From Pseudomonadota bacterium (GTDB lineage: Bacteria; Myxococcota_A; UBA796; UBA9615): 64,000 nt of DNA. A program made the translations under genes and the position numbers. Location: positions 22,419 through 86,418 of the forward strand of contig JAAESI010000117.1 in NCBI GenBank assembly GCA_024229515.1, given 5' to 3'. The notes beneath the pieces were generated by a model. It had not been told where the DNA came from. It worked only from the letters and a program-made list of their open reading frames with translations, and ran no database searches. Below, piece after piece: positions 40,221 to 63,174 of this stretch (its first letter is position 1; every line of letters begins with the position of its first letter).

Positions 40221-41171
40221 GTGGTGCCTCGACTTCTGATCATCGGATCCGCGACCGCCCCCAGCAGTGCGGACGTGGTGCACGCGGCGTCCTCGAGCGA
40301 CGCCCGGCGCGAGCTGGGGAGCACCCCCTACGACGCCCTCGCCCTCTGCCCCGAGGATGACCCCGAGCTGGTCCGGTGGACCCGCATCGCCCAGCCGAGC
40401 GCGGTCCTCCTCGCTCACGGCGCACCTCTGACCCGTGCCGAATTGCTCGCCTGGGGCGTGGACGGCCAGCTCCACGACGAGGCCCTCGAGGCGGTACCGG
40501 CGCTCCGCGCCGAACGTCTGCGGCGAAGCCGCCTGGAGCCCGACGCGCCGATTCGGGTCATGCTCGTCGACGACGACCCCGTCGTCCGTGATTCCCTCGC
40601 CAGCACCCTGCGGCGACGCGAGTTCGAGGTGCAGACGGCCGAGGACGCCGAGGCCGCGCTCGAGATGATGCGGGACTGGCACGCCCATGTGCTGCTGACG
40701 GATCTGAGGATGCCGGGCACCTCGGGCTCCGACCTCCTCGCCTCCGCCGGACGTTGGGATGCCGACCTCGAGCTTGTCGTGCTGACCGGCTTCCCCTCGA
40801 CCGAGGCGGCCGTGGGAACCCTCCGCGAGGGAGCCTCGGAGTTCCTCACCAAGCCAGCCCTCCCCGAAGAGATCGCGGCGGCCGTCAGCCGGGCCGCGGA
40901 ACGCCGCCGTGCTCGGCTGCTCGCCCGGGAGCGCGGACCGCAGCTGGAATCCCCCCAGGGCCTCCGCCCGAGCAAGCCGCTGAGCGCGCGCGAGCAGGAA
41001 GTGCTTCGGTTCGTCGCCTGGGGCTACTCCAGCCGCGAGGCCGCCGAGAAGCTGGGCATCAGCATCAAGACGGTGCAGACCTACCGCGAACGGTTGGGGC
41101 AGAAGCTCGGCAGCACGCGCCGGGCTGACTTCCTGCAGTACGCCATCTCGATCGGGCTGAAGAGCCCGTAG
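40221..41171 (+). CDS. Response regulator with LuxR/FixJ-type HTH and an extra N-terminal receiver-like domain
   Basis: 316 aa; central receiver (IRVMLVDDDPVV...LLTDLRMPGTSG...TKP), C-terminal LuxR HTH; first 110 aa look like a degenerate receiver. Confidence 0.8.
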   Translation: MVPRLLIIGSATAPSSADVVHAASSSDARRELGSTPYDALALCPEDDPELVRWTRIAQPSAVLLAHGAPLTRAELLAWGVDGQLHDEALEAVPALRAERLRRSRLEPDAPIRVMLVDDDPVVRDSLASTLRRREFEVQTAEDAEAALEMMRDWHAHVLLTDLRMPGTSGSDLLASAGRWDADLELVVLTGFPSTEAAVGTLREGASEFLTKPALPEEIAAAVSRAAERRRARLLARERGPQLESPQGLRPSKPLSAREQEVLRFVAWGYSSREAAEKLGISIKTVQTYRERLGQKLGSTRRADFLQYAISIGLKSP

Positions 41172-43090: not shown

Positions 43091-43960
43091 TCAGTCCTTC
43101 GGGCGGGATAGCGCTCCCGGCGGGGGGCCCTCGGCCGCGCTCAAGCGTCCCGCCTCGGCGGGGTCGTCGGGGGCGAGTTCGAGCCCTCCCGCGGCCGCGG
43201 TGATCTGGGACTCCAGGCGCCGGCCGGCGTCGGTGTCGTGCAACGCCTCCGCCGCGATCAGGGCGAGGGCGATCCGGCCCGCCGCCTCCAACTCCTTCAG
43301 CAACTCGGCGCCCCGGTCGGGGGCTGCCACGCAGAGCAATTCGATGGCCCGCCGCTGCACCGCGGGAGCTGCATCGTGGGCGGCTCGATGGAGCCGGTCC
43401 GGAACCTCGGTCGACGGGAACGTCAGGGCCGCCCCGATCGCTTCCAGCCGCTGCGCGAGGACCGCCGCCAGACCCTCGGCCGGGGCCTCCGCCAGCTCGA
43501 TCCAGACCCCGCCGCGATCGATGTTGAGCCCGCTCCACCGAAGGCTGAAGGTGACGAGCGTCGCTCGAGCCTCCGGGCTCAGCGCGGCCAGCACCGCGGC
43601 TTCGTCTCCGCTGGCGACAAAGCGCTCGTCGAACTCGGCGTCCCCGGTGGCGATCGTCTCGGAGGCGAAGAAGCCGTCCATGCGGGGGCGGAGCTTCAGC
43701 GGCCCCCACAGCGCCACGGTCGGCGGCTCCCCCTCGATGCGGACCCGATCCCCCGGCAGGGAGCGGAGGACGACCGACTCGGTGATGGCGCAAGGGGGGT
43801 CGGGCTCGGGAAGCGAGCGTTGGAGGTAGCCGCGAACGGCGGTGACGATGGGGTAGCCGGGGACCCACGCGAGGGCGAGGAGGAAGAGCCACCCGCCGCC
43901 TACCGGCATCGCGCCGCCGAACCGATCAGCGAGACCGATCAGCAGAACAGGGGGCACCAC
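43091..43960 (-). CDS. Hypothetical membrane-anchored protein
   Basis: N-terminal hydrophobic segment, Ala/Leu-rich helical remainder, good GC3; no recognisable family. Confidence 0.4.
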   Translation of the reverse strand: MVPPVLLIGLADRFGGAMPVGGGWLFLLALAWVPGYPIVTAVRGYLQRSLPEPDPPCAITESVVLRSLPGDRVRIEGEPPTVALWGPLKLRPRMDGFFASETIATGDAEFDERFVASGDEAAVLAALSPEARATLVTFSLRWSGLNIDRGGVWIELAEAPAEGLAAVLAQRLEAIGAALTFPSTEVPDRLHRAAHDAAPAVQRRAIELLCVAAPDRGAELLKELEAAGRIALALIAAEALHDTDAGRRLESQITAAAGGLELAPDDPAEAGRLSAAEGPPPGALSRPKD

Positions 43961-44008
43961 CCACCCGCCCAGCAGGAGGACGCAGCTCTCGCTGGGGGTC
44001 TCGCTCAG

Positions 44009-47116
<3,108 letters not shown>

Positions 47117-47219
47117 CGGGGATCTCCGGCCTCGAATCCTAGACGGCCCCCGCGTGCGCGTGAAGGGCTGAATGGGTGCAATAGGGTATCCCCCGGCCAA
47201 TTCGGTCTAGGGTTCGGCC

Positions 47220-48734
47220 GTGCGCATCGCCCTGCTGCAGTGTGAGTTGGAGCACCGTCACCAGGCCCCCCACCTGGCCATGTGCCTGTTCGCACGGGAC
47301 CTGCAAAACGCAGGACATGACGTCCACTGCGGGCTCGTCCACCCCTCCGCGTTGGATGCCGCGGGAGACGCCGCGAGCGGGGTCGATCTGCTCGTCTTGG
47401 ACTCGATCTTCCCGTTCGCGATGGTCCGCCGGCTGAAGGAGCGAACCGGCGCGACGGTGGTGATCGGCGGACACAACGCGCTGCAGCACGCGCTCCGAGG
47501 CCCCGCGGATCTGGCGATCGTCGGGCCGGGACGCCAGGCGATGACGTCGCTGGCCTGGGGAGCCGACCCCGCCCTCATCCCCGGGCTCTGGTGGAAGGAC
47601 CCCGAGGGCGTGCTGCAGGCGTCCCCGGCGGTGCCTGCGGCGCTCGAGTCCCAACTCCTGCCGTTCGATCCGTTCCTGGATTGGGACTACTACGGCCCCC
47701 CGCGGGCTCCCGGATCCAACCTTCGGGTGCCGTCGATCGTGGCCGACTCGGGGTGCGTCTGGAATCGGTCCGCAATCGGCGACGGCGGGCCCTACGCAGG
47801 GATCGCACCGCGGCTCCCCGACGTCCGCCTGGGGCCCGAGGCGACGAAGCAGATCCAATCGACGTTCATTGCCCGCGAGGGAGGCTGCACCTTCTGCGCG
47901 TTTCGCTACACCCCGCACGAACGCGGGGGGGCCGTCGAGGCGGTGCTCGCGCAGGCGGATGTCCTGATCGAGCGGGGCGCGCGGGGGCTGTCGTTGCAGA
48001 CGGAGCACCCCCTCCCCATCACCGCGGCGGTGCTGGACGGACTGGCGGGACGGGGGCTGGACGAGCTCCACATCCGCACGATCCCCTGGCTGCTGAACCG
48101 GAACGTGGCGCTGCTGGATGAGGCCATCGCGGCGGCGGAGCGGACGGGCATCCGGTTGGTGCTCGCCCAGGTCGGGTTCGAAGCCTTCGACGACGCGACC
48201 CTCGGCATCTACCACAAGGGCCTGTCGGGCTCGGAGAATCGGGCGGCGGCGCGGCTGTTGGGGGAGCGCACGGCGGCCCACGACGGCTTCCTCGGGACCG
48301 CCGGCCACGGCCTGGTGCCGCTTCACCCCTGGTCCACGCCGGAGGGGCTGCGCACGACGCTGACGGCGTGCCGCGAGGACGCCCCCTGGCTGCTCCCCCA
48401 GCTGACCCCGGCCAGTCGGATCGAGCTGTACGACGAGTACTCACCGCTGTTCTGGAAGGCGCAGGACGACGGCCTCGTGCAACCCAACCCCGCGTCCTTC
48501 GGTTGGGATTGGACTTGGGCGGATCGCCGCACCGGCGAAGCGGTGGCGGCCTGGGGGGCGATCCTTGAAGCGGCCGTCGCCCCCGAAGCGACCACTGCGG
48601 CGGTGGTGCTCGATGGGGTATTGCACGCCCTGGAGCATCAGTCGAACCCCCAAGATCGTCGGAAGCACTACCTCGACATGCGCGACCGCGCCCGACGCAC
48701 TAAGTTGGATATTCAGGAGTGGAGAGAGCCATGA
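47220..48734 (+). CDS. Hypothetical protein, possibly B12-binding-domain/radical-SAM-like with a non-canonical Cys motif
   Basis: 504 aa; N-terminal Rossmann-like segment (MRIALLQ...DLLVLDSIF...ATVVIGGHNA) resembling B12-binding domains of class B radical SAM enzymes; Cys cluster C-x40-CTFC instead of CxxxCxxC; stop overlaps next gene (ATGA). Confidence 0.4.
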   Translation: MRIALLQCELEHRHQAPHLAMCLFARDLQNAGHDVHCGLVHPSALDAAGDAASGVDLLVLDSIFPFAMVRRLKERTGATVVIGGHNALQHALRGPADLAIVGPGRQAMTSLAWGADPALIPGLWWKDPEGVLQASPAVPAALESQLLPFDPFLDWDYYGPPRAPGSNLRVPSIVADSGCVWNRSAIGDGGPYAGIAPRLPDVRLGPEATKQIQSTFIAREGGCTFCAFRYTPHERGGAVEAVLAQADVLIERGARGLSLQTEHPLPITAAVLDGLAGRGLDELHIRTIPWLLNRNVALLDEAIAAAERTGIRLVLAQVGFEAFDDATLGIYHKGLSGSENRAAARLLGERTAAHDGFLGTAGHGLVPLHPWSTPEGLRTTLTACREDAPWLLPQLTPASRIELYDEYSPLFWKAQDDGLVQPNPASFGWDWTWADRRTGEAVAAWGAILEAAVAPEATTAAVVLDGVLHALEHQSNPQDRRKHYLDMRDRARRTKLDIQEWREP

Positions 48735-49711: not shown

Positions 49712-51517
49712 TCAGCTCCGCGGCTTGGACCGGGGCTCTTCGGCCCGAATCTGGCGACGAAGGCGCCGCGCCTCCTCCGAGGGTCGCGAGTCCAGCTGCT
49801 CCCGCAGGACGCGGACCAGGGAGCCGTACTGGTCCATGGCGTCCACCCTGCGCCCGCCCTCCAGCAGGGTGCGGATCAGGCGGAGGTGGATGTCCTCCCG
49901 CAGGGGATCGACGGCGACGGCCCGACGCAGCAGGCTGACGTCGCCGCTGTTGCCGTCCAGCGCGCGGCGGTAGCGGTCCAGGCGGAGCAGCACATCGATG
50001 CAACGCTCGCGGAAGCGGCTCCGCGGATCAATGGTCCAGACCGCGTCCTCCACCCCTGCGAAGAGGTCACCGCGGTACAGGTCGAGCGCCGCCTGGAGGT
50101 GTGCCCTGGCCGCCCTCTCCGAATCGCCCTGGGCCTCCGCGGTGCGCGCCTTCGCGATGGCGTCTCGGAAGCGCCACAGATCGACGGAAGCGCCCGCCGG
50201 AAGCGCGAGGGAGTAGCGGTCGTTCTCGCAGACGAGCCAGCTGACCGCGCTCTTGTCCTTGTTCGGGCCCAGGGCCTTGCGGAGGGCATAGACCACGCCA
50301 TGCAGGCGGTTCTTGGCCGCCTCGGGCTCGACTCCCGGCCAGAGCAGGCGGGCCAACTGCGAGCCCGCCACGGTCCGTCCGGGCTTGAGCACGAGGAGCT
50401 GGAGCAGCTCCACCGCCTTGCGGCGTGCAAACGCGGAGCGTGGGAGGGGCTCGCCGTCGAGGTGGACCTCGAAGCTGCCGAAGCAGCGGATCTCGACCGG
50501 CGGCTGCACCGCCGCCGGCGGCGGGCCGAGGGCGGGAGGGCGGGGGCCGCGCCAGGCTTCGATGAGCCCCAGCGAGGGGGCGACATAGCGGGTCAGCGGC
50601 AGGGGCACGTGATCGGTGTAGGAGAGCCGGGCGATCCCCTGCAGCACGCCCCCCCGCTCCAGCGGCAGGCAGTACCGGACCTTCGCCGGTCCGCAGCGTT
50701 CCAGGCATGGCTCCGGCCAGTGGACCGAGTCGCCCTCGAGCACCGCCAGGCCCACCTCGCGGACCGGGGCGCAGTCGGCCAGGGACATGTCCCTGGAGCT
50801 CAACGCCAGCCCCCGCGGGCCGACCTCGGCGTTCGACGGCGGGCCGAGCCGGAGCAGGGCCACGTCCGCCGCGGTGAGGGTCCGGAGGCGCTCCCTCAGA
50901 TCCCCTCGAACGTCCGCGTTCGGCCCGACCCAGGCGGCCGCCGAGGCGAGCAGGGCGCTGCCGACGATGCTCCCCAGGCCGGCCAGCACCCGGCCCACCC
51001 GCTCGAAGTCGACGTCGTCTCGCTTCCAGCCGAGGTTGAGCGTGCCGAGCACCCGCCCTGCGGCCCCGATGGGCATCGAGATGAAGGACTTGTACCCCGC
51101 CGCTTTCACGCCGGAGCGCAGGAACCGCTCGTCGTTGTCCAGGCAGCTGGTCTGCACCGCGGCGTTGGTCTGCACCGCCAGGCCGGGGTAGCCATCGGCC
51201 AGGCTGAACCGGCTGATCTCGGCAAAGGTGGCGGCGTCGCAGCCCCGGTGCAGCGTCAGGAGCAGCTCGAGCCCGTCGGGGCGGAGCAGGAAGCACTCCG
51301 CCGAGTCCGCACGGGTGGCGCGCCGCAGCATCTCAAGCACGTCGTCGAGGCTGTCGGCCAGCCTCTGCGGGTCGAGCATCAACGCGGCGCGGCCGATCAA
51401 CGCTAGGTCGCGTTCGTTTCGGCCGATCCGCCGTCGCGCGACAACGGTTCCGTCCAACCGTTCCTGGCCCGGGGGCATGGCCAGGAGGTTGTTGTCTGCT
51501 CGTCCAGACTTCGACAC
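49712..51517 (-). CDS. GAF-domain transcriptional regulator with SARP-type winged helix and BTAD domain
   Basis: 601 aa; N-terminal GAF-like region; winged-helix segment (VEIRCFGSFEVHLDGEPL...HGVVYALRKALG); C-terminal BTAD-like helical repeats. Confidence 0.7.
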   Translation of the reverse strand: MSKSGRADNNLLAMPPGQERLDGTVVARRRIGRNERDLALIGRAALMLDPQRLADSLDDVLEMLRRATRADSAECFLLRPDGLELLLTLHRGCDAATFAEISRFSLADGYPGLAVQTNAAVQTSCLDNDERFLRSGVKAAGYKSFISMPIGAAGRVLGTLNLGWKRDDVDFERVGRVLAGLGSIVGSALLASAAAWVGPNADVRGDLRERLRTLTAADVALLRLGPPSNAEVGPRGLALSSRDMSLADCAPVREVGLAVLEGDSVHWPEPCLERCGPAKVRYCLPLERGGVLQGIARLSYTDHVPLPLTRYVAPSLGLIEAWRGPRPPALGPPPAAVQPPVEIRCFGSFEVHLDGEPLPRSAFARRKAVELLQLLVLKPGRTVAGSQLARLLWPGVEPEAAKNRLHGVVYALRKALGPNKDKSAVSWLVCENDRYSLALPAGASVDLWRFRDAIAKARTAEAQGDSERAARAHLQAALDLYRGDLFAGVEDAVWTIDPRSRFRERCIDVLLRLDRYRRALDGNSGDVSLLRRAVAVDPLREDIHLRLIRTLLEGGRRVDAMDQYGSLVRVLREQLDSRPSEEARRLRRQIRAEEPRSKPRS

Positions 51518-51709
51518 GGGTGCGTAGTGGTGCTTTCGGCTGAGGTTCTGCGGGTGGACTTAGCAAGAACCACGCCCGGAATCAACGGCCCTCGCGTGGG
51601 CCGTCGGAAGGGTCTGTCAGCTGCTGGGGGACCGTACCCGGGCCTATTTGCACATCCGGAGTGTGCGATATGGCCCAGCCCGGCGAGCCTTCGATCGGCT
51701 CCGACCAGC

Positions 51710-53617
51710 TTACGCCTCCGTCGACAGTCCGTAGCGCTTGTCGATGCCGATGATGTGCCCGACGAGCCAGGTCTCCAGGAAGATCATGAAGCGGTCCAGC
51801 ACGTCCGGATCGCCCGAGCCGGCCTCCTCCCGGAGCCCGTGGACCTGCGCCAGGAGCTGCTTGTGCGTCTCCTTGTGCTGGTCGAGGTCGGCGTACCCGA
51901 TGGACTCCATGTAGACCTCTTCGGCGGCGAAGTGGACCCGCGTGTACTCGATGACACCGTCCATGACCGGCCAGATATCCTCGATGTGGCGACCGCGCTG
52001 GATGACCTCGTCCAGGTCGTTGATCAGCCCGATCAGGGTGCGGTGCTGGTCGTCCATGTCGGGCACGCCGACGCTGTACTTCTCCCCCCACTGCATCAGC
52101 GGCGCAAGCACGTCGCCGGGCAGGACCCGGGTCTGGTCGGCGTACTGCGACTCGAACCCGACCGGCGCCTGCGTCATCTTCGTCACGACCCGGTGCATCC
52201 ACACCAGGCAGAACAGCGACAGCACGAACATGAACATCCAGCAGCTGGTCCAGATCCCGGTCCCCTCCAGCAGGTAGCCGAACAGGATCGGGCAGACGAA
52301 GCCGCCGAGGCCGCCGAGCACACCGACCATGCCGCCGACGACGCCGACTTCGTTGGGGAAGTAGTCGGGGATGTGCTTGTAGACCGCCGCCTTGCCGATG
52401 CCCCAGATGGCGCCGAGCAGGATCGCGAGGCCCGCGAACACCCACACGTTGGCCTGGAAGTAGATGCGGGTGACGCCGCGGGCGAGCAGCTGCTTCCGCT
52501 TCACGGCCTCGCCGACCTTCACCATCGGCTCGTGCCAGACGTCCTTGGACGGCAGGATGAGGGTCTCGTCGTCGCCCGTGATCAGGTTCGCGGGCCTCTT
52601 GTCGACGGGGTACGAGGTCTCGCCGACGACGATCGCGTCGGGGAGGATCTCCGAGACGACGCCGTCGCCGCGGGCGATCACGCCCTTGCCGGGGGAGACG
52701 ACCTCCATCTTCGGCACGATCAGCAGGAGGCTGACCAGGACCGAGGTGCCCAGTACGCCGTACATCACCTTGCGAGCACCGAACTTGTCCGACGCCCACC
52801 CGCCGAGCGCGCGGATGACGCCCGAAGGGAAGCTGAACGCCGCCGCGAGGGCACCGGCGGTGACCAGGGTGAGGCCGTAGACGCTGACGAAGTACGGGAC
52901 CAGCCACTGCGAGAAGGCGACGAAGCAGCCGAACACGAGGAAGTAGTACAGGCCGAAGCGCCAGACCCGCATCTGCTTGAGCGGCTTGAGCAGGCCGGCG
53001 AGGGTCTTGCTGGAGACCTCCGGCTTCTTGTTCTCCGTGAGCAGGAGGAACAGCACGGCCACCACGACCATCATCACCGCGTAGTAGACGGGGAGCTGGC
53101 GCCAGTTCTCGAGGTCGGCCCCGTCGTTGGTCAGCCGGTTCAGGAGGGTCGGAGCGAGGATGGTCGTGCCGGCGGCGCCGGCGTTGCCCGCCCCGAAGAT
53201 GCCCAGGGCCGTGCCCTGGTTCTTCTGCGGGTACCAGACCGACGTGAACGCGATGCCGATGGCGAAGCTGGCGCCGCACATTCCGAACCCGAAGCTGCAC
53301 AACGCGAAGGTGAAGAAGGAGTTCGCGTGGGACAGCAGGTACAGCGGGATCGCCGCCAGGAACAGCAGCGACGCGAAGACCGGCTTGCCGCCATAGCGGT
53401 CCGTCAGGATGCCGGCGGGCAGCCGGAAGATCGCGCCGGTCAACACCGGGATGCCGAGCAGCCAGCCGATCTCGACCGGACCCCAGTCGAACACCTGGTT
53501 GCTCGCCAGGAACGTCACGAGGACGCCGTTGAGCATCCAGCAAGCGAAGCAGACCGTGAACGCGAACGTGTTCACCGTCAGGATTCGATGGGAAGTAGCG
53601 GTGGCCTCCTTCAGCAT
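51710..53617 (-). CDS. narK: NarK-type nitrate/nitrite transporter (MFS, NNP family) fused to a C-terminal bacteriohemerythrin domain
   Basis: 635 aa; MFS helices with NNP signature GIFGAGNAGAAG; an 85-aa insert between the two 6-helix halves; C-terminal 125 aa with hemerythrin motifs (DDQHRTLIGLINDL, HFAAEEVYM, DQHKETHKQL, WLVGHIIGIDKRYG). Confidence 0.8.
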   Translation of the reverse strand: MLKEATATSHRILTVNTFAFTVCFACWMLNGVLVTFLASNQVFDWGPVEIGWLLGIPVLTGAIFRLPAGILTDRYGGKPVFASLLFLAAIPLYLLSHANSFFTFALCSFGFGMCGASFAIGIAFTSVWYPQKNQGTALGIFGAGNAGAAGTTILAPTLLNRLTNDGADLENWRQLPVYYAVMMVVVAVLFLLLTENKKPEVSSKTLAGLLKPLKQMRVWRFGLYYFLVFGCFVAFSQWLVPYFVSVYGLTLVTAGALAAAFSFPSGVIRALGGWASDKFGARKVMYGVLGTSVLVSLLLIVPKMEVVSPGKGVIARGDGVVSEILPDAIVVGETSYPVDKRPANLITGDDETLILPSKDVWHEPMVKVGEAVKRKQLLARGVTRIYFQANVWVFAGLAILLGAIWGIGKAAVYKHIPDYFPNEVGVVGGMVGVLGGLGGFVCPILFGYLLEGTGIWTSCWMFMFVLSLFCLVWMHRVVTKMTQAPVGFESQYADQTRVLPGDVLAPLMQWGEKYSVGVPDMDDQHRTLIGLINDLDEVIQRGRHIEDIWPVMDGVIEYTRVHFAAEEVYMESIGYADLDQHKETHKQLLAQVHGLREEAGSGDPDVLDRFMIFLETWLVGHIIGIDKRYGLSTEA

Positions 53618-53648
53618 CTTGGTGTGTCTCCAGGGACGCCTCGCCCGA

Positions 53649-55289
53649 TCAGCAGCTGCGGGCGGAGCCCTTTCTCACGTAGAACCACCAGTTCACGACC
53701 AGGCAGGTGGCGTAGTAGCCGGCGAAGCCGTACAGCGCGTACTCCGGCGTTCCGTTCTTGATCTGCTGGCCGAAGATCTTGGGGATGAGGTACGCCCCGT
53801 AGGCGGCGACCGCGGCCGTCCAGCCGAGCACGGGACCGCGCAGGTCCTTGTCGAACAGCACGCCGATCATGCGGAAGGTCGAGCCGTTGCCGATCCCGGT
53901 CATCGCGAAGAGGATGATGAAGAGGATCAAGAAGGGCATGAAGTACTGGGTCGGGTCCTCGGACCGGGCGGCCGCCGCGGTGAACCAGCCCGCGCCGATC
54001 GTCGCCGCGACCATCACGATCGTGCTCCAGTGGGTGACCTTCGATCCGCTGTCGATCTTGTCGCTGAGCCAGCCGCCGACGGGCCGGATCAGCGCGCCCA
54101 CGCCCGCGCCGATCCAGATGTAGGCCGCCGACTTCATCCCGGTCGGGTCGCCGGCGTGCTCGCCCACCCGGATGACGCCGAAGACGTCGTCGATCAGCTT
54201 GGGGAAGGCGTTGGCGTAGCCGATGAAGGAGCCGAACGTCATGACGTACAGGTAGGTCATGATCCAGTTGTCCCGCTCGCTGAAGATCGCGAACTGGCCC
54301 TGGAGGTTCTTCTTTGTTTCCGCGGGGGTGAGGTACCTCAACAACGCCAGCGTCGTGACGATCGCCACGATGGCCACGAGGAACGTCTTCAGGAGCACCG
54401 GGAAGCCGCCCCAGGGGATGATCAACAGCACGATCGCGAGCGCCGCGCCGGCGAAGCCGAGCGTGGTCATCCAGAGGTGCTTGCCCACCGCCACCGGGGT
54501 CGGCCCGCAGTGGTGGAAGGGCATGTTGTCCATGAACAGGAACGCGAGGATCGTGCAGGTGATGATGATCGGCACCCACACCAGGCCCGCGTTCTGGACC
54601 CACATCTGGGCGGCCGCCCCATCGGCGGCGTAGCTGTACGGGTCGCCGCCCATCGCTCCGAACATCCCGAACGTGATCGCCCACGGGATCAGGAACTGCA
54701 TGGCGCTGACGCCGAGGTTGCCCAGCCCCGCGTTCAGCCCGAGGGCCAGGCCCTGCATCTTCTTGGGGAAGAAGAAGCTGATGTTGGACATCGACGACGA
54801 GAAGGCGCCGCCTCCGGTGCCGGACAGCGCCGCGAGGATGATGAAGACGTAGTAGGGCGTGTCGGGGTTCTGCAGCGCGATCCCGGCGCCCAGGGCGGGC
54901 AGGATCAGCAGCAGCGTGGTCATGAACTTCACGTTCCGACCGCCGACGATCGAGATCATGAACGAGTTGACGATTCGGAGGGTGGCGCCGGACAGCCCCG
55001 CCACCGCCGGCAGCAGGAACAGGAGCCCTCGGTAGCCGCCGTCGTCGTACGGCTGCCCGTCGTTCATGAAGGTGAAGTTGAAGAGCTCGCCGTCGGTCCC
55101 GAAGTGGAGCTTCTGGATGTACTTGGCGACCATGCCCCAGTAGATCCAGACCGCGAACCCCAGGAACAGTTGGGGGATCGACACCCACAGGTTCCGGTTG
55201 GCGACCTTCTTGCCCTCGGACTCCCAGAACTGTTCGTCCTCGGGTTCCCAACGGGTCAGGCGGCTGGCGGGGTTCGGACGATCGGTCAT
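53649..55289 (-). CDS. narK: NarK-type nitrate/nitrite transporter (MFS, NNP family)
   Basis: 546 aa, 12 predicted TM helices, NNP signature GLNAGLGNLG; overlapping ORF 53611..55251 is an off-frame artefact. Confidence 0.85.
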   Translation of the reverse strand: MTDRPNPASRLTRWEPEDEQFWESEGKKVANRNLWVSIPQLFLGFAVWIYWGMVAKYIQKLHFGTDGELFNFTFMNDGQPYDDGGYRGLLFLLPAVAGLSGATLRIVNSFMISIVGGRNVKFMTTLLLILPALGAGIALQNPDTPYYVFIILAALSGTGGGAFSSSMSNISFFFPKKMQGLALGLNAGLGNLGVSAMQFLIPWAITFGMFGAMGGDPYSYAADGAAAQMWVQNAGLVWVPIIITCTILAFLFMDNMPFHHCGPTPVAVGKHLWMTTLGFAGAALAIVLLIIPWGGFPVLLKTFLVAIVAIVTTLALLRYLTPAETKKNLQGQFAIFSERDNWIMTYLYVMTFGSFIGYANAFPKLIDDVFGVIRVGEHAGDPTGMKSAAYIWIGAGVGALIRPVGGWLSDKIDSGSKVTHWSTIVMVAATIGAGWFTAAAARSEDPTQYFMPFLILFIILFAMTGIGNGSTFRMIGVLFDKDLRGPVLGWTAAVAAYGAYLIPKIFGQQIKNGTPEYALYGFAGYYATCLVVNWWFYVRKGSARSC

Positions 55290-55354: not shown

Positions 55355-56083
55355 TCAGTTGTTCTTGGGCCGCGTCGGGCTCCAGGGGGTCTTCGGATCC
55401 CGGATCCGATCCTTGTTCCAGTTCCACATCACCTGCTGGTAGGGCCGGGAGATGTAGTGCAGCGGCGCCACGAAGATGTGCACGAGGCGCGTGAACGGGA
55501 CCATGAAGAGGATCAGGAACGCGCCGAAGATGTGCAGCTTGATGACCACCGGCAGGGCGAACACCGCGGCGGTCTCGGGGCTGAGCTTGAACAGCGACCA
55601 CAGGTACGGCGAGAGGTCGGCGGCGAACCACGAGGACCCCCACCGGAAGCCGAGGGCGACCCAGCAGCCCAGGACGACCTGGGCGAGCAGGAGCAGCTCG
55701 ATGGCGATGTCCATCCTGGTGGTCACGGCCTTGATCCGCTCGTTCGTCAGGCGACGATGGAGCAGGCCCACGAGGCCGACCAGGATGCTCATCCCGAAGG
55801 TGACCGCGGTGACCTCGAGGATGATCAGCCGGACCGGCTGACCGTTCCAGGCGAGGATCGCCGCCGGCACGAGGAACGCCAGCAGGTGTCCGCCGAGCAC
55901 GATGAGCAGTCCGATGTGGAACGGCATCACGCCCCAGAAGAGCTTCTTGCCCTCCAGGAACTGGGACGACAGCGAGCTGACCTTGAAGCCCGTCTGGCGG
56001 TACCGGATGGCGGTGCCGATGACGAACGTGATCATCGCCACGTAGGGGAACGCGACGAACATGAAGGTGTTCAGGGTGTTCAT
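55355..56083 (-). CDS. narI: Respiratory nitrate reductase gamma subunit (membrane cytochrome b)
   Basis: 242 aa, five TM helices with conserved His ligands, position after narJ. Confidence 0.85.
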   Translation of the reverse strand: MNTLNTFMFVAFPYVAMITFVIGTAIRYRQTGFKVSSLSSQFLEGKKLFWGVMPFHIGLLIVLGGHLLAFLVPAAILAWNGQPVRLIILEVTAVTFGMSILVGLVGLLHRRLTNERIKAVTTRMDIAIELLLLAQVVLGCWVALGFRWGSSWFAADLSPYLWSLFKLSPETAAVFALPVVIKLHIFGAFLILFMVPFTRLVHIFVAPLHYISRPYQQVMWNWNKDRIRDPKTPWSPTRPKNN

Positions 56084-56844
56084 GTCAGCTTCCCGATTCC
56101 GTAGATCCGTTGTTGGGGCTGGGGCGGGGGGACGGCCGTCGACGGCTTGTGTCCCGCGCCCTTCTCTTCGATGTCGAGCTCACGCCCGATCGACGCGAGG
56201 AAGGGGCTGGTCTCCTCGGGCCGGCCCGAGGGGCCGATGCCGAAGTCGTGTCGCACGATGTGCAGCAGCGTGACCAACGCGTTGCGGTAGACGAGGGCTC
56301 GGTCCTGCGACGTCGCGATCAGCGTCTTGTTGTACTTCTGGTAGACGGCGTTCCGAGCTTCGGTCTGCTGCTCGCCGAACTCCCGCACCATCTCTTCGAG
56401 CGCCGGGTGGAAGATCATCTCGACGAACTCGACCACGATCTCCTCGTCCTTCCAGCGCGCCAACAGGCGCAGGACGTTGGGCAGGTGGTCGGCCAGCTCG
56501 CTGCCGCAGTCGATGCCCGCGGCGCGGTGCTCGCGCCGCAGGTTGACCAGCACTTCGGCGCGCTTGTAGTCGTCGCCGAAGGCGATGTAGCCGATGTCCA
56601 GCGTCGTGACGGCCTGCACCTGGAACGACCGGGTGAACAACTCCTGCGCCTCGTCCAGCTCGGCGTCGGTCAGGATCGGCCCCCCGTCGCCGGGGAGCAG
56701 GTCAGCGAAGGCCTTCAGGGCCGGCTCGGCGTGCTCGTACCGACTCTCGACGTGGGCACGCGCCTCCGCAACCCGCGCCGGAAGGTCCGGTCCGGGGTAG
56801 TCGAAGAGCGCCGCGAGGAGCTCGTAGTGGTCCATCGGGATCAT
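56080..56844 (-). CDS. narJ: Nitrate reductase molybdenum cofactor assembly chaperone
   Basis: 254 aa from ATG 56844 (MIPMDHYELLAALFDYPGPD...) embedded in longer ORF 56080..57735; between narH and narI. Confidence 0.8.
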   Translation of the reverse strand: MIPMDHYELLAALFDYPGPDLPARVAEARAHVESRYEHAEPALKAFADLLPGDGGPILTDAELDEAQELFTRSFQVQAVTTLDIGYIAFGDDYKRAEVLVNLRREHRAAGIDCGSELADHLPNVLRLLARWKDEEIVVEFVEMIFHPALEEMVREFGEQQTEARNAVYQKYNKTLIATSQDRALVYRNALVTLLHIVRHDFGIGPSGRPEETSPFLASIGRELDIEEKGAGHKPSTAVPPPQPQQRIYGIGKLT

Positions 56845-56846
56845 GC

Positions 56847-58400
56847 TCAGCTCCCCCGCTCGGCGGAGCCGTCCTTGAACCCGAAGCCGGTGTTCCCCTT
56901 CACGTCGCCGGTGAACTCGAGCATCTCGATCGCCTGCTCGCGGTGGGCGGCGGGCACGACGAACCGGTCGTCGAACTTGGCCAGCGAGGTCAGGTAGTAG
57001 ATGTCGTCTGCCAGCTCCGCCGTCAGGCCGACGTCGGCCAGGGTCTTGTCGGCCTTGGCGTCGGTGATGTCGCCGACGGTAACGCGGCGGCGGTGGATGC
57101 GCACGGCCATCAGCTTCTTGAGCCGATCGATGACCATGGCCTCGTCGCCGTTGCTGAAGAGGCTCGCGAGGTACTTCATCGGCATCCGGGCCTGCTCGAT
57201 GGTGCCCCAGAGCTCTTCGGTGCTCGTGTCGTACAGCCAGTTGTCCGGCCAGTACTTCGCGATGTCGTGCATCTTCTCGGACTGCGCCGTGTTGTCGACG
57301 TCCTTGACCGAGGCCATCACCGGCAGCATCGGCGGCACGTAGAAGAGCATCGGGAGCGTGCGGAACTCCGGGTGCAGCGGCAGCGCCAGACCCCACGTCT
57401 TGATGAACTTGTACGTCGGCGAGTACTGCGCGGCGTGGATCGTCGAGTCCGCGATGCCGTTGGCCTTGGCCGAGGCGATCACCTTCTCGTCGAAGGGGTC
57501 CTGGATGATGTCCATGTGGTTGTTGACGAGGCTCGCGTCGTCGGACGAGGCGACCTGGTGGATCTTGTCCGCGTCGTACAGGAGCACCCCGAGGTAGCGG
57601 ATGCGGCCCACGCAGGAGTGCATGCACGCCGGCGCGTAGCCCGCCTCGATGCGGGGGTAGCAGAGGATGCACTTCTCGGACTTGCCGGTGTGCCAGTTGT
57701 AGTACGACTTCTTGTACGGGCAGGCCGTCACGCACATGCGCCAGGCGCGGCAGACGGACTGGTTGATCAGGACCACGCCGTCCTCACCGCGCTTGTACAG
57801 CGCCCCCGAGGGGCACGACGCGACGCAGGCGGGGTTGAGGCAGTGGTTGCAGATCCGCGGCAGGTAGAAGAAGCACATCCGCTCGAGCTGGAACATCGCC
57901 TCCTGCTCGGCCTCGGACAGGTCCTTCATGTTGGGATCTTTGCGCGCGTAGTCGGGCGTGCCCGACCAGTCGTCGTCCCAGTTGGGCCCCATCCGGATGT
58001 CCATCGGCTTGCCGGTGATCATCGAGATCGGACGCGCCGTCGGCTGATCGTCGCCGGCCGGCGACTCGATCAGGTCCAGGTAGCGGTAGGTGAACGGCTC
58101 GTAGTAGTCGCCGATCTCCGGCATGTGGGGGTTGTGGAAGATGTTCCGCAGCCCCTTCTTCTTGCCGGCTCCCTTGAGGTCGATCCCGTTGGCGTCCTTC
58201 TCCCAGCCGCCTTTGTAGATCTCCTGGTCTTCCCACTTGGTGGGGTAGCCCGTGCCAGGCTTGGTCTCCACGTTGTTCCACCACATGTATTCGGCGCCCT
58301 TGCGGTCCGTCCAAATGTTCTTGCATGCGATGGAGCAGGTGTGGCAGCCGATGCACTTGTCGAGGTGGAACACCATCGAGACTTGTGAGCGAATGTCCAT
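56847..58400 (-). CDS. narH: Respiratory nitrate reductase beta subunit (Fe-S)
   Basis: 517 aa; four Cys clusters (CIGCHTCSIAC, CNHCLNPACVASCP, CRAWRMCVTACPYKK, CILCYPRIEAGYAPACMHSC). Confidence 0.95.
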   Translation of the reverse strand: MDIRSQVSMVFHLDKCIGCHTCSIACKNIWTDRKGAEYMWWNNVETKPGTGYPTKWEDQEIYKGGWEKDANGIDLKGAGKKKGLRNIFHNPHMPEIGDYYEPFTYRYLDLIESPAGDDQPTARPISMITGKPMDIRMGPNWDDDWSGTPDYARKDPNMKDLSEAEQEAMFQLERMCFFYLPRICNHCLNPACVASCPSGALYKRGEDGVVLINQSVCRAWRMCVTACPYKKSYYNWHTGKSEKCILCYPRIEAGYAPACMHSCVGRIRYLGVLLYDADKIHQVASSDDASLVNNHMDIIQDPFDEKVIASAKANGIADSTIHAAQYSPTYKFIKTWGLALPLHPEFRTLPMLFYVPPMLPVMASVKDVDNTAQSEKMHDIAKYWPDNWLYDTSTEELWGTIEQARMPMKYLASLFSNGDEAMVIDRLKKLMAVRIHRRRVTVGDITDAKADKTLADVGLTAELADDIYYLTSLAKFDDRFVVPAAHREQAIEMLEFTGDVKGNTGFGFKDGSAERGS

Positions 58401-58441
58401 TTAGGCCTCCAGGGGTCGGTTCGGGGTGGAGGGGGAGGTCA

Positions 58442-61400
58442 TCAGAAGACCACCTTGTCCATGCGCTTGATGATCACGTGAGTGTCGCGCTGCGGAGCGA
58501 TGGGACCCCAGTAGTTGAAGTGGTAGGCGAACTGGCCGTAGCCGCCTGCCAGGTAGTTCGGCTTCAGGTGGATCCGCGTGAAGCTGTTGTGCCCGCCGGC
58601 CCGCTTGTTGCCGCGAACCTGGGACTTCGGGATGCCGACCGTGCGCTCGGGCACGTGGTAGACGATGCAGACCCCCTTGGGGATCCGCGCGCTCACCGTG
58701 CACCGGGTGCAGTAGACGCCGTGGTCGTTGTAGACCTCGACCCAGTCGTTGTCCTGGATGCCCATGGCCGCCGCGTCCGGCTCGCTGAGCCAGCAGGGCT
58801 CGCAGCCGCGGGACAGCGTCAACATCCGGTGGTTCTCCATGTAGGTGGAGTGGATGTGCCACTTTCCGTGCGGGGTCAGGCAGTTGAGGATCAGCGCCTC
58901 GCCGCCCTGCAGCGTCGTCTTGAGGTCACCGTAGGCCTCGGGCTTCGGAGACGGCTTGTAGGTCGGCAGGTTCTCGCCGTACGCGATGTACATCTCGTGG
59001 TCGAGGTAGAAGTGCTGCCGGCCCGTGAGGGTCCGCCACGGCACGCGCATGTCGACGTTGTAGGTGTAGGCGCAGTAGGCGCGGCCGTCGTTCATCAGCC
59101 CCGACCACAAGGGCGAGGTGTTGTAGCGGCGCGGCTGGGCCTGCAGGTCGGCGTACCGAATGCGGACGTCCTCGCTCCCCTTGCCCAGGTGCACGAGGTC
59201 GACGCCGGTCTTGGCTGCGGCGTTCTCGTAGGCCCGGACGTTGAGCTTGCCGTTGGTCAGGGTCGACAAGTGCAGCACCGCGTTGGCGGCGTACTCGTCT
59301 TCCTGGATCGACGGGAGCGTCTTGCCGTTGAACTTCCGCACCGGGAAGTGGTTCGACTCGATCATCTCCTCGTAGGCGTCGCCGGCATCGAAGTGGTTGC
59401 CGTGGGCGCCCAGGCCGGCGTCGATGATGCGGTCGCCGAGGGTGACGTACTTCTCGTACAGCTGGGTGTAGTCGCGGTCGACGATCGCCAGCTTGTGCAT
59501 CGTCTTGCCGGGGATCGGCTCGCACTCGCCCAGGTACCAGTCCTGCACGTTCCGCATCGCGATCTCGCCCGGCGAGTCGTGCGCGATGGGAGCGGAGATG
59601 ATGTCCTTCTTGGGACCGGAGAAGTACTGCAGCGCGGCCCCGGACGTGGCCTTCGCCAGCGTCCTGAAGATGTCCCAGTCCGTCTTCGACTCCCACACCG
59701 GCGGGATGGCCGCCGACAGGGGGTGGATGAAGGAGTGGAGGTCCGTGCTGTTGAGGTCCGCCTTCTCGTACCAGGAAGCCGCCGGCAGGACGATGTCGGA
59801 GTAGAGCGCCGAGCTGTCCATGCGGAAGTTCAGGTTGACGATCAGGTCCATCTTCCCGCGGGGGGCGACGTCATGCCACTTGACGTCTTCGGGGCGCTGG
59901 TCGGAGTCCTCGCCGATCGCGTTGCTGTGGGTGCCCAGGTAGTGCTTGAGGCAGTACTCGTGCCCCTTCATGGAGCCCATGATCGCGTTGCCGCGCCAGA
60001 TGTACCAAACGCGCGGGAAGCTGGCCTCGGCGTCGGGATCGCTGACGCAGTAGTTCAGCTGCTTCGACTTGAGCTTGTTCAGCACGTACTGCTGGATGGC
60101 CCCGTCGTCGCTGGCGCCCTGGCTCTGGGCCTCCTCACAGAGGTCGAGCGTGTTCTGGTCGAACTGCGGGAAGAAGGGCATCCAACCGAGCCGCACGGCC
60201 TTGAAGATCGTGTCGGCGGTATGCTTCCGGGTCCAGTCGTTGTCCGGCACGGTGTTGTACCGGCTGAACTGACCGTCGTAGCGGTACTGGCAGGTGTTGA
60301 TGTAGTGCCAGATGGGCGCCTGCTGGAGCCGCACCGCAGCGTGGTGATCCTTGCCGAAGGCGATCGTGCCCCAGGAGTCCACCGGAGCCAGCTTCTCCTG
60401 GCCGACGTAGTGGTTCAGGCCGCCGCCGTTCTTGCCCACGCAGCCCGAGAGCATGAGGGCCATCGCCCCGGCGCGGTACATCAGGTTGGCGTGGTACCAG
60501 TGGTTGATACCGGCACCGATGATGATCATGCACTTGCCTTCGGTCGTGTTGGCCGTGGCGGCCCACTCCCGAGCAAACTGCAGCACCGTCTTGGAGTCGA
60601 CGCCCGTGAAGATCTCCTGCCACGCCGGCGTGTACGCGGCGTCCTTGTCGGTGTAGTCGGTCGGGTACGCGCCCTGAAGGCCGCGGTTGATGCCGTACTG
60701 ACCCATGATCAGGTCGTAGACCGTCGCCACCGCCACGGGGCCGTGGTTGGTGTCCACCTGCATGACGGGCACGCCGCGGTAGACCGTGGTGTCCAGCCCG
60801 AACTCGGTGAAGGCGCACTGCGCGACCTCGGTGCTGCGGTCCAGCAGCGTGAGGACCGGGTCGTACGGCTGATCGTCGACGATGTTCTCGTGGAGCGTGT
60901 TCCAGTTGCCGGGCTTGTCGTCCCAGCGCGCTCCCGAGGAGCCCTTCGGCACGACCAGGCGGCCGCTCTCCTGGTCGAGGTTCACGAACTTCCAGTCGCC
61001 GTTCGTGATGCCCTCGAACTGGGCGAGGTCGCCAGCGCGGAGCAGGCGGCCGGGCTTGTAGCGGTCGCCGTCCTTCTCGAGCTCGACGAGGAAGGGGCTG
61101 TCCGTGTGCTTCTTGACGTAGTCGAGGAAGTACGGGGTCTTGGCCTTGTGGTGGAACTCCGTGAGGATGACGTGCGTGACCGCCATCCAGAAGGCGCCGT
61201 CGCTGCCGGCGTGGATCGGGACCCACTGGTCAGCGTACTTGCAGACCTGGCTGAAGTCGGGCGCGAACACGACCGCCTTGGTGCCGTTGTGGCGCGACTC
61301 CGCGAAGAAGTGGCAGTCCGGGGTGCGCGTCATGTTCAGACACGCGCCCATGTCCGCGATCATCTTGGAGTTGTACCAATCGGCGCTCTCGCAGACGTCG

Positions 61401-62059
61401 GTCTGCTCGCCCCAGATCTCGGGGAACGCCGTGGGCAGGTCGCAGTACCAGTCGTAGAAGCTGAGGTTCACTCCGCCGAAGAGCTGGAGGAACCGGCCGC
61501 CGGCGGCGTAGCTCAGCATCGACATGGCCGGGATCGGGGAGAAGCCGATGACCCGGTCCGGACCGTAGTCCCGCGCCGTGCGGATGTTCGCCACGGCCAT
61601 CAGCTCCAGGACCTCGTCCCAGTGGGCGCGCCGAAAGCCGCCCTTGCCGCGGGCCGTCTGGTAGGTCTGCCGCGCCCGCGAGTCGGACTGCAGCGCCTCC
61701 CAGGCCTTCATCGGGTCGCCGCCGTTGGACGCCTTCTTCGAGCGCCAGGCATCCAGCAGCGCGCTGCGGATCAGCGGGTACTTGATGCGCAGCGGGCTGT
61801 AGAGGTACCAGGAGTAGGAGATGCCGCGCTGGCAGCCCCGGGGCTCGTACGGAGGCAGTGAGTCCTCGAGCAGCGGGTAGTCCAGCTGCTGGGTCTCCCA
61901 CACGACGATGCCGTCCTTGACGTGGACCTGCCACGAGCAGCCGCCGGTGCAGTTCACACCGTGGGTGCTGCGGACGATCCGGTCGTGCTGGAAGCGGTTC
62001 CGATAGAACTCCTCCCACTTGCGGGTCTGCGGGGAGATGATGTCTTTGATCCAACCCAT
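58442..62059 (-). CDS. narG: Respiratory nitrate reductase alpha subunit (Mo-bisMGD catalytic subunit)
   Basis: 1205 aa; N-terminal FS0 motif [11 protein letters not shown]; conserved throughout. Confidence 0.95.
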
Positions 62060-62983: not shown

Positions 62984-63174
62984 GGCCTGCCTTCTCCCGG
63001 CCGCGCACAAGGTCGTACGCGGTTGTCGCGGGAGGTATAGGGGAGGCCGCTTACAGCCCACTTACGGGACCCGACTTTGTTCGGCAGCGGCTCGTCTTTC
63101 GCACGAGGAGGCCGCTATGGTTCGTCGACTGGAGGTGTCGTCTGTCCGCCGAGCTGCCCCTGCATGCCGCGCTC

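What the first reader, a model, noticed from the sequence alone, without database searches (positions are those of the whole stretch)
49712..51517. GAF-SARP hybrid regulator immediately downstream of the nar operon
SARP regulators normally start with the winged helix; here an N-terminal GAF-like region of about 330 aa precedes the winged-helix and BTAD domains. GAF domains are known to sense nitrate (NreA) and NO (NorR), and the gene lies 192 bp from the last nar gene on the same strand. It is a candidate nitrate or NO-responsive activator of this locus.
Basis: inference. Interest (0 to 1): 0.55.

Follow-up and report, generated by a model that had tools for sequence, protein, structure and literature searches.

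The report
DnrS-type GAF-SARP activator of nitrate respiration
The gene is real and encodes a sensor-plus-DNA-binding regulator that almost certainly switches on the neighbouring nitrate-respiration operon. It is a distant relative of the known Thermus regulator DnrS, so it is not a new kind of protein, and oxygen or redox is a likelier signal than nitrate.

Summary
ORF 49712-51517 on the minus strand (601 aa) is GAF + reduced second GAF + winged helix + BTAD. It lies 192 bp downstream of narC-GHJI-narK-narK'(hemerythrin fusion) on the same strand.

It is not a new hybrid. It aligns end to end with a Thermus thermophilus protein that I infer to be DnrS (27% identity, E 2e-38). DnrS is the published oxygen-sensitive GAF+BTAD activator of narCGHJIKT.

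The family is large: at least 150 clusters at 50% identity. Every homologue I could place in context sits beside nitrate reductase or nitrate transport genes, either upstream or downstream of them.

New here:
- An exact GTAAG-N6-GTAAG direct repeat occurs once in the 64-kb window. It lies 10 nt upstream of a -10-like TATACC before narC, which is canonical SARP-box geometry. It recurs in the nar promoters of relatives: 12 non-redundant sites, all in nar promoters, against about 1 match expected.
- Three family-wide cysteines (C249, C271, C283), plus C275 in this clade, sit in the second GAF.

There is no specific likeness to NreA, and none of the five NorR iron-centre residues is conserved. Most likely an oxygen/redox-gated nar activator; the signal is inferred, not shown.

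The parts
49712..51517 (-). Regulator CDS, 601 aa, DnrS-family GAF-GAF'-wHTH-BTAD. Alternative ATG start at 51478 gives 588 aa.
   Evidence: The N-terminus MSKSGR resembles MSSSEH of P0003, which favours the GTG at 51517.
50930..51412 (-). GAF1 (aa 36-196), confidently modelled. Its pocket has no invariant His or Cys.
50543..50929 (-). Reduced second GAF (aa 197-325) carrying C249 (50771-50773), C271 (50705-50707), C275 (50693-50695) and C283 (50669-50671).
   Evidence: hhalign middle domain vs GAF1, prob 97.4%, E 9.8e-12. Cys conservation: 153/157, 152/158 and 143/157 in 164 family representatives. Codon coordinates.
50198..50497 (-). OmpR-type winged helix (aa 341-440), starting with the family motif E-I/L-R-C-F-G (C345 present in 151/164).
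   Evidence: Pfam Trans_reg_C; AfsR/EmbR alignment.
49745..50185 (-). BTAD domain (aa 445-591).
   Evidence: Pfam BTAD, E 3.7e-25.
51518..51709 (-). 192-bp spacer between narK'-hemerythrin and the regulator. No terminator or sigma-70 match was found. It holds a weak sigma-54-like element at 51562-51577.
63050..63065 (-). Predicted operator: direct repeat GTAAGTGGGCTGTAAG (two 11-bp-phased units) in the narC promoter.
   Evidence: It is the only match in the window even with 1 mismatch allowed. At 2 mismatches the count is at chance level. The same box occurs in nar promoters of relatives.
63034..63039 (-). -10-like hexamer TATACC, 10 nt after the second GTAAG, which is 8 nt after the heptamer GTAAGCG. 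It lies ~50 nt upstream of the narC ATG.
   Evidence: The geometry rule is from PMC10936776.
62090..62983 (-). narC, a c-type cytochrome and first gene of the operon. The ATG at 62983 is preceded by GGGAGAAGG.
   Evidence: Pfam Cytochrom_C; 32% identity to the Thermus cytochrome upstream of narG.
55355..62059 (-). narG (58442-62059), narH (56847-58400), narJ (56080-56844), narI (55355-56083).
51710..55289 (-). narK (53649-55289) and a NarK-type MFS fused to a C-terminal bacteriohemerythrin (51710-53617).

Best explanation
The gene encodes a one-component transcription activator of the DnrS family. Its architecture is sensor (GAF1 + cysteine-bearing reduced GAF2) followed by a SARP output (winged helix + BTAD).

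Proposed mechanism:
1. Two SARP domains bind side by side to the two 11-bp-phased GTAAG repeats. These take the place of a -35 element in the narC promoter (63050-63065), 8-10 bp upstream of the -10.
2. They recruit RNA polymerase as AfsR does, switching on narC-GHJI-narK-narK'.
3. The N-terminal tandem GAF gates this activity. The most likely signal is absence of oxygen or a reducing state, read through a cysteine-ligated metal, Fe-S or thiol centre in GAF2.

Status of each step:
- Shown here: domain architecture, homology to the Thermus protein I infer to be DnrS, strict nar linkage, and the conserved promoter box.
- Inferred: DNA binding to the box, activation, and the nature of the signal.
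For: Architecture and homology:
- Domain architecture.
- Collinear homology to the T. thermophilus GAF protein encoded divergently from narC and followed by a Crp/Fnr gene, which is the published dnrST arrangement: tblastn E 3e-26, BLASTP 27% identity over 513 aa, E 2e-38, annotation.
- DnrS is required for nar transcription and is oxygen-labile (PMC5748679, PMC7694296, PMC6282519).

nar linkage:
- Every homologue with flanking DNA is next to nar or nitrate transport genes. The order is rearranged between clades: downstream in the window clade, upstream in SAR202/Gemmatimonadales, divergent in Thermus.

Promoter box:
- GTAAG-N6-GTAAG is unique in the window.
- GTAAG-N6-G[AT]AAG gives 17 matches (12 non-redundant) in 709 kb of window plus loci, against ~1.0 expected from composition. 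All lie in regulator/nar intergenic DNA in the nar orientation.
- 8 of the 12 non-redundant sites have TA exactly 10 nt downstream.
- Two boxes with an imperfect upstream repeat face the two divergent nitrate operons in Deinococcus.
- The geometry equals the SARP rule: repeats 11 bp apart, 3' repeat 8 bp from the -10 (PMC10936776).

Cysteines:
- C249, C271 and C283 are conserved in 143-153 of ~157 occupied positions across 164 representatives.
- A fourth Cys column is occupied in 108/144. In the window clade it is replaced by C275.
Against: - DNA binding by DnrS has never been shown, and I saw no GTAAG box on reading the Thermus narC-dnrS spacer.
- Thermus DnrS and about 40% of the family carry an extra N-terminal PAS-like four-Cys module that the window protein lacks. 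If that module is the real oxygen sensor, the short form may sense something else.
- GAF2 of the window protein is shortened, has lost the first family Cys, and is modelled with only moderate confidence (pLDDT 40-83). I had no coordinates to check that the cysteines cluster in space.
- Several -10-like hexamers lack the T at -7.
- No box precedes the regulator gene in the window, so autoregulation as in Thermus is not indicated.
- No DnrT-like partner is in the window.
Confidence: 0.55

Rival explanations
1. Nitrate or nitrite sensor. GAF1 binds nitrate or nitrite directly, as NreA does, and the protein activates nar when the substrate is present.
For: - GAF1 is well folded, and its only invariant polar residues are E74, R103 and R134; whether they line the pocket, where they could hold an anion, was not checked.
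- I did not look for DrpA/DrpB (DUF2249/DUF1858) homologues, so the nitrate input is unassigned here.
- nar induction normally needs nitrate.
Against: - The best matches are PtsP, fRMsr and NifA-type GAFs.
- In Thermus the nitrate input maps to DrpA/DrpB, not to DnrS (PMC6282519).
Confidence: 0.15
2. NO sensor. A metal centre in the sensor region, either NorR-like mononuclear iron or an Fe-S cluster that is nitrosylated, reports NO and tunes nar expression.
For: - Any Cys-ligated Fe-S centre would react with NO as well as with oxygen.
- Hemerythrin domains, which often bind O2 or NO, recur in these loci.
Against: - The NorR residues R75, D96, D99, C113 and D131 map to G112, N128, R131, F145 and G163 of the window protein, so none is conserved (residue list partly from PMC2941729).
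- The output is SARP, not a sigma-54 AAA+ domain.
- NO is a product downstream of nitrate reduction, which makes it an odd primary inducer of nar.
Confidence: 0.1
3. The cysteines are a structural site (for example zinc) with no sensing role. Control is exerted elsewhere: by a metabolite bound to GAF1 (2-oxoglutarate or a cyclic nucleotide type ligand), by a partner protein, or simply by regulated synthesis of the regulator from a sigma-54 promoter.
For: - Exact TGGCAC-N5-T(T/C)GC elements lie ~40-45 nt upstream of the regulator start codon in four related clades.
- The closest solved GAFs are metabolite-binding types: PtsP and NifA.
- DnrT in Thermus acts in a concentration-dependent way (PMC7694296).
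Against: - The window's own sigma-54-like element has 3 mismatches and is not above chance.
- Swapping the lost first Cys for C275, which keeps four cysteines, suggests selection on a four-ligand site. That does not distinguish a structural role from a sensory one.
- DnrS is oxygen-labile in vivo.
Confidence: 0.15

Closest known systems
DnrS of Thermus thermophilus (dnrST operon of the nitrate respiration conjugative element)
   Same: - N-terminal GAF plus C-terminal BTAD.
- Collinear homology over GAF1, GAF2, winged helix and BTAD (27% identity, E 2e-38).
- Encoded beside a narC-GHJI-transporter operon of the same cytochrome-c-containing type.
- Three of the GAF2 cysteines are shared.
- A hemerythrin gene lies nearby in both.
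   Different: - The window protein lacks the ~95-aa N-terminal PAS-like four-Cys module.
- It has a shortened GAF2 with the first Cys replaced by C275.
- It keeps C345 in the winged helix, which Thermus lacks.
- It lies downstream of nar on the same strand, not divergently upstream.
- It has no adjacent Crp-family DnrT.
- It comes from a ~70% GC metagenome-assembled genome (MAG) of a different phylum.
- I saw no GTAAG box on reading the Thermus spacer.
SARP family (AfsR, ActII-ORF4, DnrI, EmbR)
   Same: - Winged helix + BTAD unit, E ~1e-12 to AfsR and EmbR.
- Predicted target is a pair of 11-bp-phased direct repeats overlapping the -35 region, 8 bp from the -10 (PMC10936776).
   Different: - The SARP unit is C-terminal, behind a 340-aa sensor, where SARPs normally have it at the N-terminus.
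- The context is respiration, not antibiotic biosynthesis.
- The host is not an actinomycete.
- The repeat sequence (GTAAG) is its own.
NreA/NreBC of staphylococci
   Same: Functional analogy: a GAF protein and a Cys-ligated oxygen sensor jointly control narGHJI.
   Different: - No specific sequence or structure likeness to NreA.
- NreA has no DNA-binding domain and acts through the kinase NreB.
- Here sensor and output are one polypeptide.
NorR (GAF-AAA+-HTH NO sensor)
   Same: GAF domain used as a gas or redox sensor upstream of a transcription output.
   Different: - The iron-centre residues are not conserved.
- The output is SARP and presumably sigma-70 dependent, not a sigma-54 AAA+ domain.
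FNR/ANR
   Same: Possible functional equivalent: a cysteine-ligated, oxygen-labile centre controlling a nar promoter from a site overlapping the -35 region.
   Different: Unrelated fold (CRP family) and an inverted-repeat operator. The cofactor in the present family is hypothetical.

Membership tests
DnrS family (Thermus nar master regulator) | N-terminal GAF plus C-terminal BTAD in one cytoplasmic protein | tested here: met
   Pfam on the window protein and on the Thermus protein. Description of DnrS in PMC5748679.
DnrS family (Thermus nar master regulator) | Significant full-length, collinear sequence similarity to DnrS | tested here: met
   tblastn E 3e-26 over aa 46-547. BLASTP 27% identity over 513 aa, E 2e-38. 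That the Thermus AA2-2 protein is DnrS is inferred from its position upstream of narC and its Crp/Fnr neighbour.
DnrS family (Thermus nar master regulator) | Encoded next to a narCGHJI-transporter operon | tested here: met
   The same holds in all relatives with flanking DNA.
DnrS family (Thermus nar master regulator) | Co-operonic Crp-family partner DnrT | tested here: not met
   tblastn of Thermus DnrT against the window gave no hit at E<=0.01. It could lie elsewhere in the genome.
DnrS family (Thermus nar master regulator) | Oxygen-labile conformation; required for nar transcription | not testable with these tools
   Needs genetics and biochemistry.
SARP | OmpR-type winged helix immediately followed by BTAD | tested here: met
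SARP | Target promoters with direct repeats 11 or 22 bp apart, the 3' repeat 8 bp from the -10 | tested here: met
   In silico only: the box at 63050-63065 with TATACC at 63034-63039, and 12 non-redundant sites in relatives. Rule quoted from PMC10936776.
SARP | SARP unit at the N-terminus; actinomycete secondary-metabolite context | tested here: not met
   The SARP unit starts at aa ~341. The neighbours are nar genes.
NreA-type nitrate-binding GAF | Closer to NreA than to other GAF domains | tested here: not met
NreA-type nitrate-binding GAF | Nitrate-contacting residues conserved | not tested
   I had neither the NreA sequence nor a verified residue list.
NorR-type NO-sensing GAF | Residues of the mononuclear iron centre (R75, D96, D99, C113, D131) | tested here: not met
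   hhalign of the family GAF1 profile against E. coli NorR. The residues map to G112, N128, R131, F145 and G163. [quoted passage not shown]
NorR-type NO-sensing GAF | Sigma-54 AAA+ output domain | tested here: not met
   No AAA+ domain found.

The most novel reading that the evidence does not exclude
The DnrS family is a widespread, FNR-independent oxygen switch for nitrate respiration. It comprises at least 150 clusters at 50% identity across Deinococcota, Chloroflexota (SAR202), Gemmatimonadota, Thermodesulfobacteriota and a Myxococcota-like lineage. In this reading a four-cysteine centre housed in a GAF domain is the sensor; I found no precedent for this cofactor site in the literature I could search. 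The SARP output reads a conserved GTAAG-N6-GTAAG operator. The short form in this window would then be the minimal version of that switch.
Probability: 0.3. Interest if true: 0.7.

Novelty: new member of a known kind. Interest (0 to 1): 0.45.

Why it matters
DnrS has been known since 2007 as the master switch of Thermus nitrate respiration. Its sensor chemistry and DNA target are still unknown, because the Thermus protein could not be obtained in active form (PMC5748679).

This locus and its relatives add four things:
- The family is common and strictly tied to nar across several phyla.
- They give a concrete candidate operator to test (GTAAG-N6-GTAAG-N10-TA).
- They identify a conserved cysteine set in a cryptic second GAF.
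- They offer a shorter, non-thermophile version that may be easier to purify.

Together these make the question of how bacteria without FNR or NarXL decide to respire nitrate directly testable. For annotation, 'GAF domain-containing protein' next to nar can be renamed as a DnrS-like nar activator.

Tried and rejected
1. A profile search of the word-indexed protein database with the sensor-only alignment A2 returned only four generic GAF proteins and none of the family. The exhaustive HMMER search was needed.
2. The first full-length AlphaFold run, with 9 sequences, was too poor in aa 195-366 to use (pLDDT 55.8). The second run on the sensor alone, with 21 sequences, was usable. Model coordinates are not exposed, so Cys-Cys distances could not be measured.
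4. A SARP box at other promoters was not found. There is no second site in the window at <=1 mismatch, and sites at 2 mismatches are at chance level. There is none in the 192-bp spacer or in the equivalent spacers of close relatives. MopE-locus control is therefore unsupported.
5. A sigma-54 promoter for the window's regulator: the element at 51562-51577 has 3 mismatches, which is indistinguishable from chance, although it is exact in four related clades.
6. A DnrT-like Crp/Fnr gene in the window was not found.
7. On reading the Thermus narC-dnrS spacer I saw no GTAAG repeats.
8. A FixJ/NarL-type response regulator (40221-41171) and a hybrid kinase (38180-39283) lie ~9 kb away. They score below every curated cut-off and show no link to nar.

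Full report
**The observation**

The window is ~70% GC, so long chance ORFs abound. The ORF at 49712-51517 is nevertheless a real gene, and it lies on the minus strand.

- Pfam finds GAF_2 (aa 57-189), Trans_reg_C (aa 366-422) and BTAD (aa 445-591).
- NCBIfam's best models are AfsR and BagI/FevR SARPs, matching the C-terminal half only.
- The last 261 aa align over their full length to the SARP domains of AfsR (8hvr) and EmbR (2fez) at E ~1e-12.
- Upstream on the same strand lie a c-type cytochrome (narC, 62090-62983), narG, narH, narJ, narI and narK. The last gene is a second NarK-type transporter fused to a bacteriohemerythrin (51710-53617).
- The gap to the regulator is 192 bp, as reported.
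- Downstream, a MopE-motif lipoprotein gene converges on it.

**The N-terminal 340 residues**

A first full-length AlphaFold model from 9 sequences was poor in aa 195-366. A second model of aa 30-345 with 21 family sequences reached pLDDT 76.5 and pTM 0.77.

- Foldseek aligns the model to tandem-GAF phosphodiesterases over ~350 columns.
- The Pfam-silent middle part is a diverged GAF. A profile of the family's middle domain aligns to the profile of its GAF1 with 97.4% probability, E 9.8e-12.

The protein is therefore GAF1 + reduced GAF2 + winged helix + BTAD.

**Relatives and gene neighbourhood**

The word-indexed search found only nine full-length relatives. An exhaustive HMMER search of 1.84 billion cluster representatives found at least 150 full-length representatives at 50% identity, all with E < 1e-79. 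The family is common.

Every relative whose flanks I could read is next to nitrate genes:
- Downstream of narC-GHJI-narK in the window clade.
- Upstream of it in SAR202/Dehalococcoidia, Gemmatimonadales and others.
- Close to a divergently oriented nar operon, with two genes between, in another relative.
- Beside NarK and a molybdopterin oxidoreductase, which I take to be an assimilatory-type nitrate reductase, in Deinococcus.

The linkage survives rearrangement and 30% identity, which argues for a functional tie.

**The closest characterised relative**

tblastn against plasmids hit Thermus thermophilus megaplasmids (27% identity, aa 46-547, E 3e-26) and Deinococcus plasmids (~30% identity, up to 88% coverage).

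In T. thermophilus pAA2-2b the hit is a 601-aa 'GAF domain-containing protein'. It is divergent from narC-narGHJI-MFS and is followed by a Crp/Fnr gene and a hemerythrin gene. That is the published dnrST arrangement. On that basis I take the protein to be DnrS; its identity to the published NAR1 sequence was not checked. BLASTP gives E 2e-38 over 513 collinear residues.

DnrS is described as a GAF + BTAD protein required for transcription of nar and of its own operon. It is made protease-sensitive by oxygen and is proposed as the oxygen sensor. The Thermus authors propose DrpA/DrpB as the nitrate sensor. Its sensor chemistry and DNA site remain unknown because active protein could not be made (PMC5748679, PMC7694296, PMC6282519). 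The window protein is thus a distant new member of a known kind.

**Differences from Thermus DnrS**

Thermus DnrS and about 40% of family representatives (65/164) carry an extra N-terminal module of ~100-150 aa with four conserved cysteines. Pfam calls it PAS in SAR202 members. The window protein and the other short forms lack it.

Across 164 representatives, GAF2 has four cysteine columns:
- One is occupied in 108/144. The window has Ala238 there.
- C249 is present in 153/157.
- C271 is present in 152/158.
- C283 is present in 143/157.

The window clade has lost the first of these but has gained C275, so it keeps four cysteines (C-x21-C-x3-C-x7-C). By alignment to GAF1, these positions fall on the helices and strand that surround the usual GAF pocket; that placement is an inference. 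GAF1 itself has no invariant His or Cys; its invariant polar residues are E74, R103 and R134. No DnrT-like gene is in the window.

- The NorR iron-centre residues map to G112, N128, R131, F145 and G163, so none is conserved.
- There is therefore no specific support for nitrate or NO sensing. A Cys-ligated iron centre, if present, would also react with NO.

**The promoter**

Upstream of narC the sequence reads cccGTAAGTGGGCTGTAAGcggcctccccTATACC (63065-63034, minus strand).

- GTAAG-N6-GTAAG is the only match in the 64-kb window even with one mismatch allowed. At two mismatches the count is at chance level.
- The same exact pattern lies upstream of narC or narG in L004, L006/7/17, L020 and L022.
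- Allowing G[AT]AAG in the second unit gives 17 matches (12 non-redundant) in 709 kb of window plus loci, against ~1.0 expected from composition. All 17 lie in regulator/nar intergenic DNA in the nar orientation.
- 8 of the 12 non-redundant sites have TA exactly 10 nt after the second unit.
- SAR202-type loci carry a second, distinct box: GTAAGYGARATGAAAG.
- One relative has a one-mismatch box ~49 bp before its own regulator gene.
- In Deinococcus, two boxes with an imperfect upstream repeat (GTTAG or GTTAT, then N6-GTAAG) face the two divergent nitrate operons.

This is the SARP rule: direct repeats one helical turn apart, the 3' repeat 8 bp from the -10, overlapping the -35 region (PMC10936776). 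I saw no such box on reading the Thermus spacer. None occurs before the window's regulator gene or at the MopE locus.

**Mechanism proposed**

A dimer of the SARP output binds the two GTAAG units of PnarC and recruits RNA polymerase as AfsR does. The tandem GAF sensor permits this only under the right condition. That condition is most likely anoxia or a reducing state, read by the GAF2 cysteine site, by analogy with oxygen-labile DnrS.

- Architecture, homology, linkage and the conserved box are shown.
- Binding, activation and the signal are inferred.
- The main caveat is that the module missing here (PAS-like four-Cys) could be the true oxygen sensor of DnrS.
- Rivals are direct nitrate or nitrite binding by GAF1, NO sensing, and a purely structural Cys site with control exerted elsewhere. 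For the last, exact sigma-54-type elements precede the regulator gene in four related clades, but the window's copy is degenerate.

**Verdict**

The signal it proposes is unsupported.
- It is a new, distant, shorter member of the DnrS family.
- Interest is moderate. The family's breadth, the candidate operator and the conserved cysteine set were not found in the papers I could search. They make the unresolved DnrS mechanism testable.

Noticed in passing
window 51710-53617 (-): A NarK-type MFS transporter carries a C-terminal bacteriohemerythrin domain (aa ~507-630). Separate hemerythrin genes also sit beside the regulator or the nar operon in Thermus (L038 16240-16806), L004 (12478-13158) and L006 (1-158). 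This suggests a recurrent O2/NO-binding accessory in these clusters.
   Followed up: partly
L006 9832-9846, L008 2739-2753, L009 2237-2251, L012 2727-2741; window 51562-51577 (-): Exact sigma-54-type promoter elements (TGGCAC-N5-T(T/C)GC) lie ~40-45 nt upstream of the regulator start codon in four related clades. The window's equivalent (GGGCGTGGTTCTTGCT) has 3 mismatches and is not above chance.
   Followed up: partly
window 63715-64000 (+), cut by the window end; window 63175-63615 (+): In relatives (L006, L008, L009, L012) a conserved ~150-aa ORF with no Pfam match directly follows the regulator. It has a 62%-identical homologue here, divergent from narC and next to a DUF2231 membrane protein. 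It is a nar-cluster-associated gene of unknown function.
   Followed up: partly
L038 13671-13960; P0009 aa 30-130; L019-L021, L023, P0059-P0069: Thermus DnrS and about 40% of the family have an N-terminal PAS-like module with four conserved cysteines (C-x12-15-C-x2-3-C-x~14-25-C). I did not find it mentioned in the Thermus papers I read. It is a second candidate redox or Fe-S site and is absent from the window protein.
   Followed up: partly
L014 12704, L020 12140, L042 5469, L043 2630: SAR202/Dehalococcoidia-type loci carry a second, highly conserved box (GTAAGYGARATGAAAG-N10-GARAAA) between the regulator and narC. It comes in addition to the GTAAG-N6-GTAAG box, which suggests tandem regulated promoters.
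   Followed up: no
L039 6590-6615 (-) and 6816-6831 (+): In Deinococcus sp. D7000 the family member sits beside NarK and a molybdopterin oxidoreductase, which I take to be an assimilatory-type nitrate reductase. Two boxes with an imperfect upstream repeat (GTTAT or GTTAG, then N6-GTAAGTGG) face the two divergent operons. The family may therefore also control nitrate assimilation.
   Followed up: partly
L001 8073-9875, L006 12398-14173, L008 5354-7132, L009 4719-6497: A ~592-aa MFS_1 + DoxX fusion protein recurs next to the regulator in the window clade's relatives. The window has the MFS-hemerythrin fusion in the corresponding place.
   Followed up: no
window 43238-47245 (+) / 44009-47200 (-): Two very long overlapping ORFs on opposite strands (1335 aa and 1063 aa) have no Pfam or NCBIfam match. 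They lie in a stretch with unusually strong AT skew (-0.31 at 44001-46000).
   Followed up: no
window 38180-39283 (-) and 40221-41171 (+): A hybrid histidine kinase and a FixJ/NarL-type response regulator with a ~110-aa N-terminal extension lie about 9 kb from the nar cluster. Both score below all curated cut-offs, and no link to nar was established.
   Followed up: no
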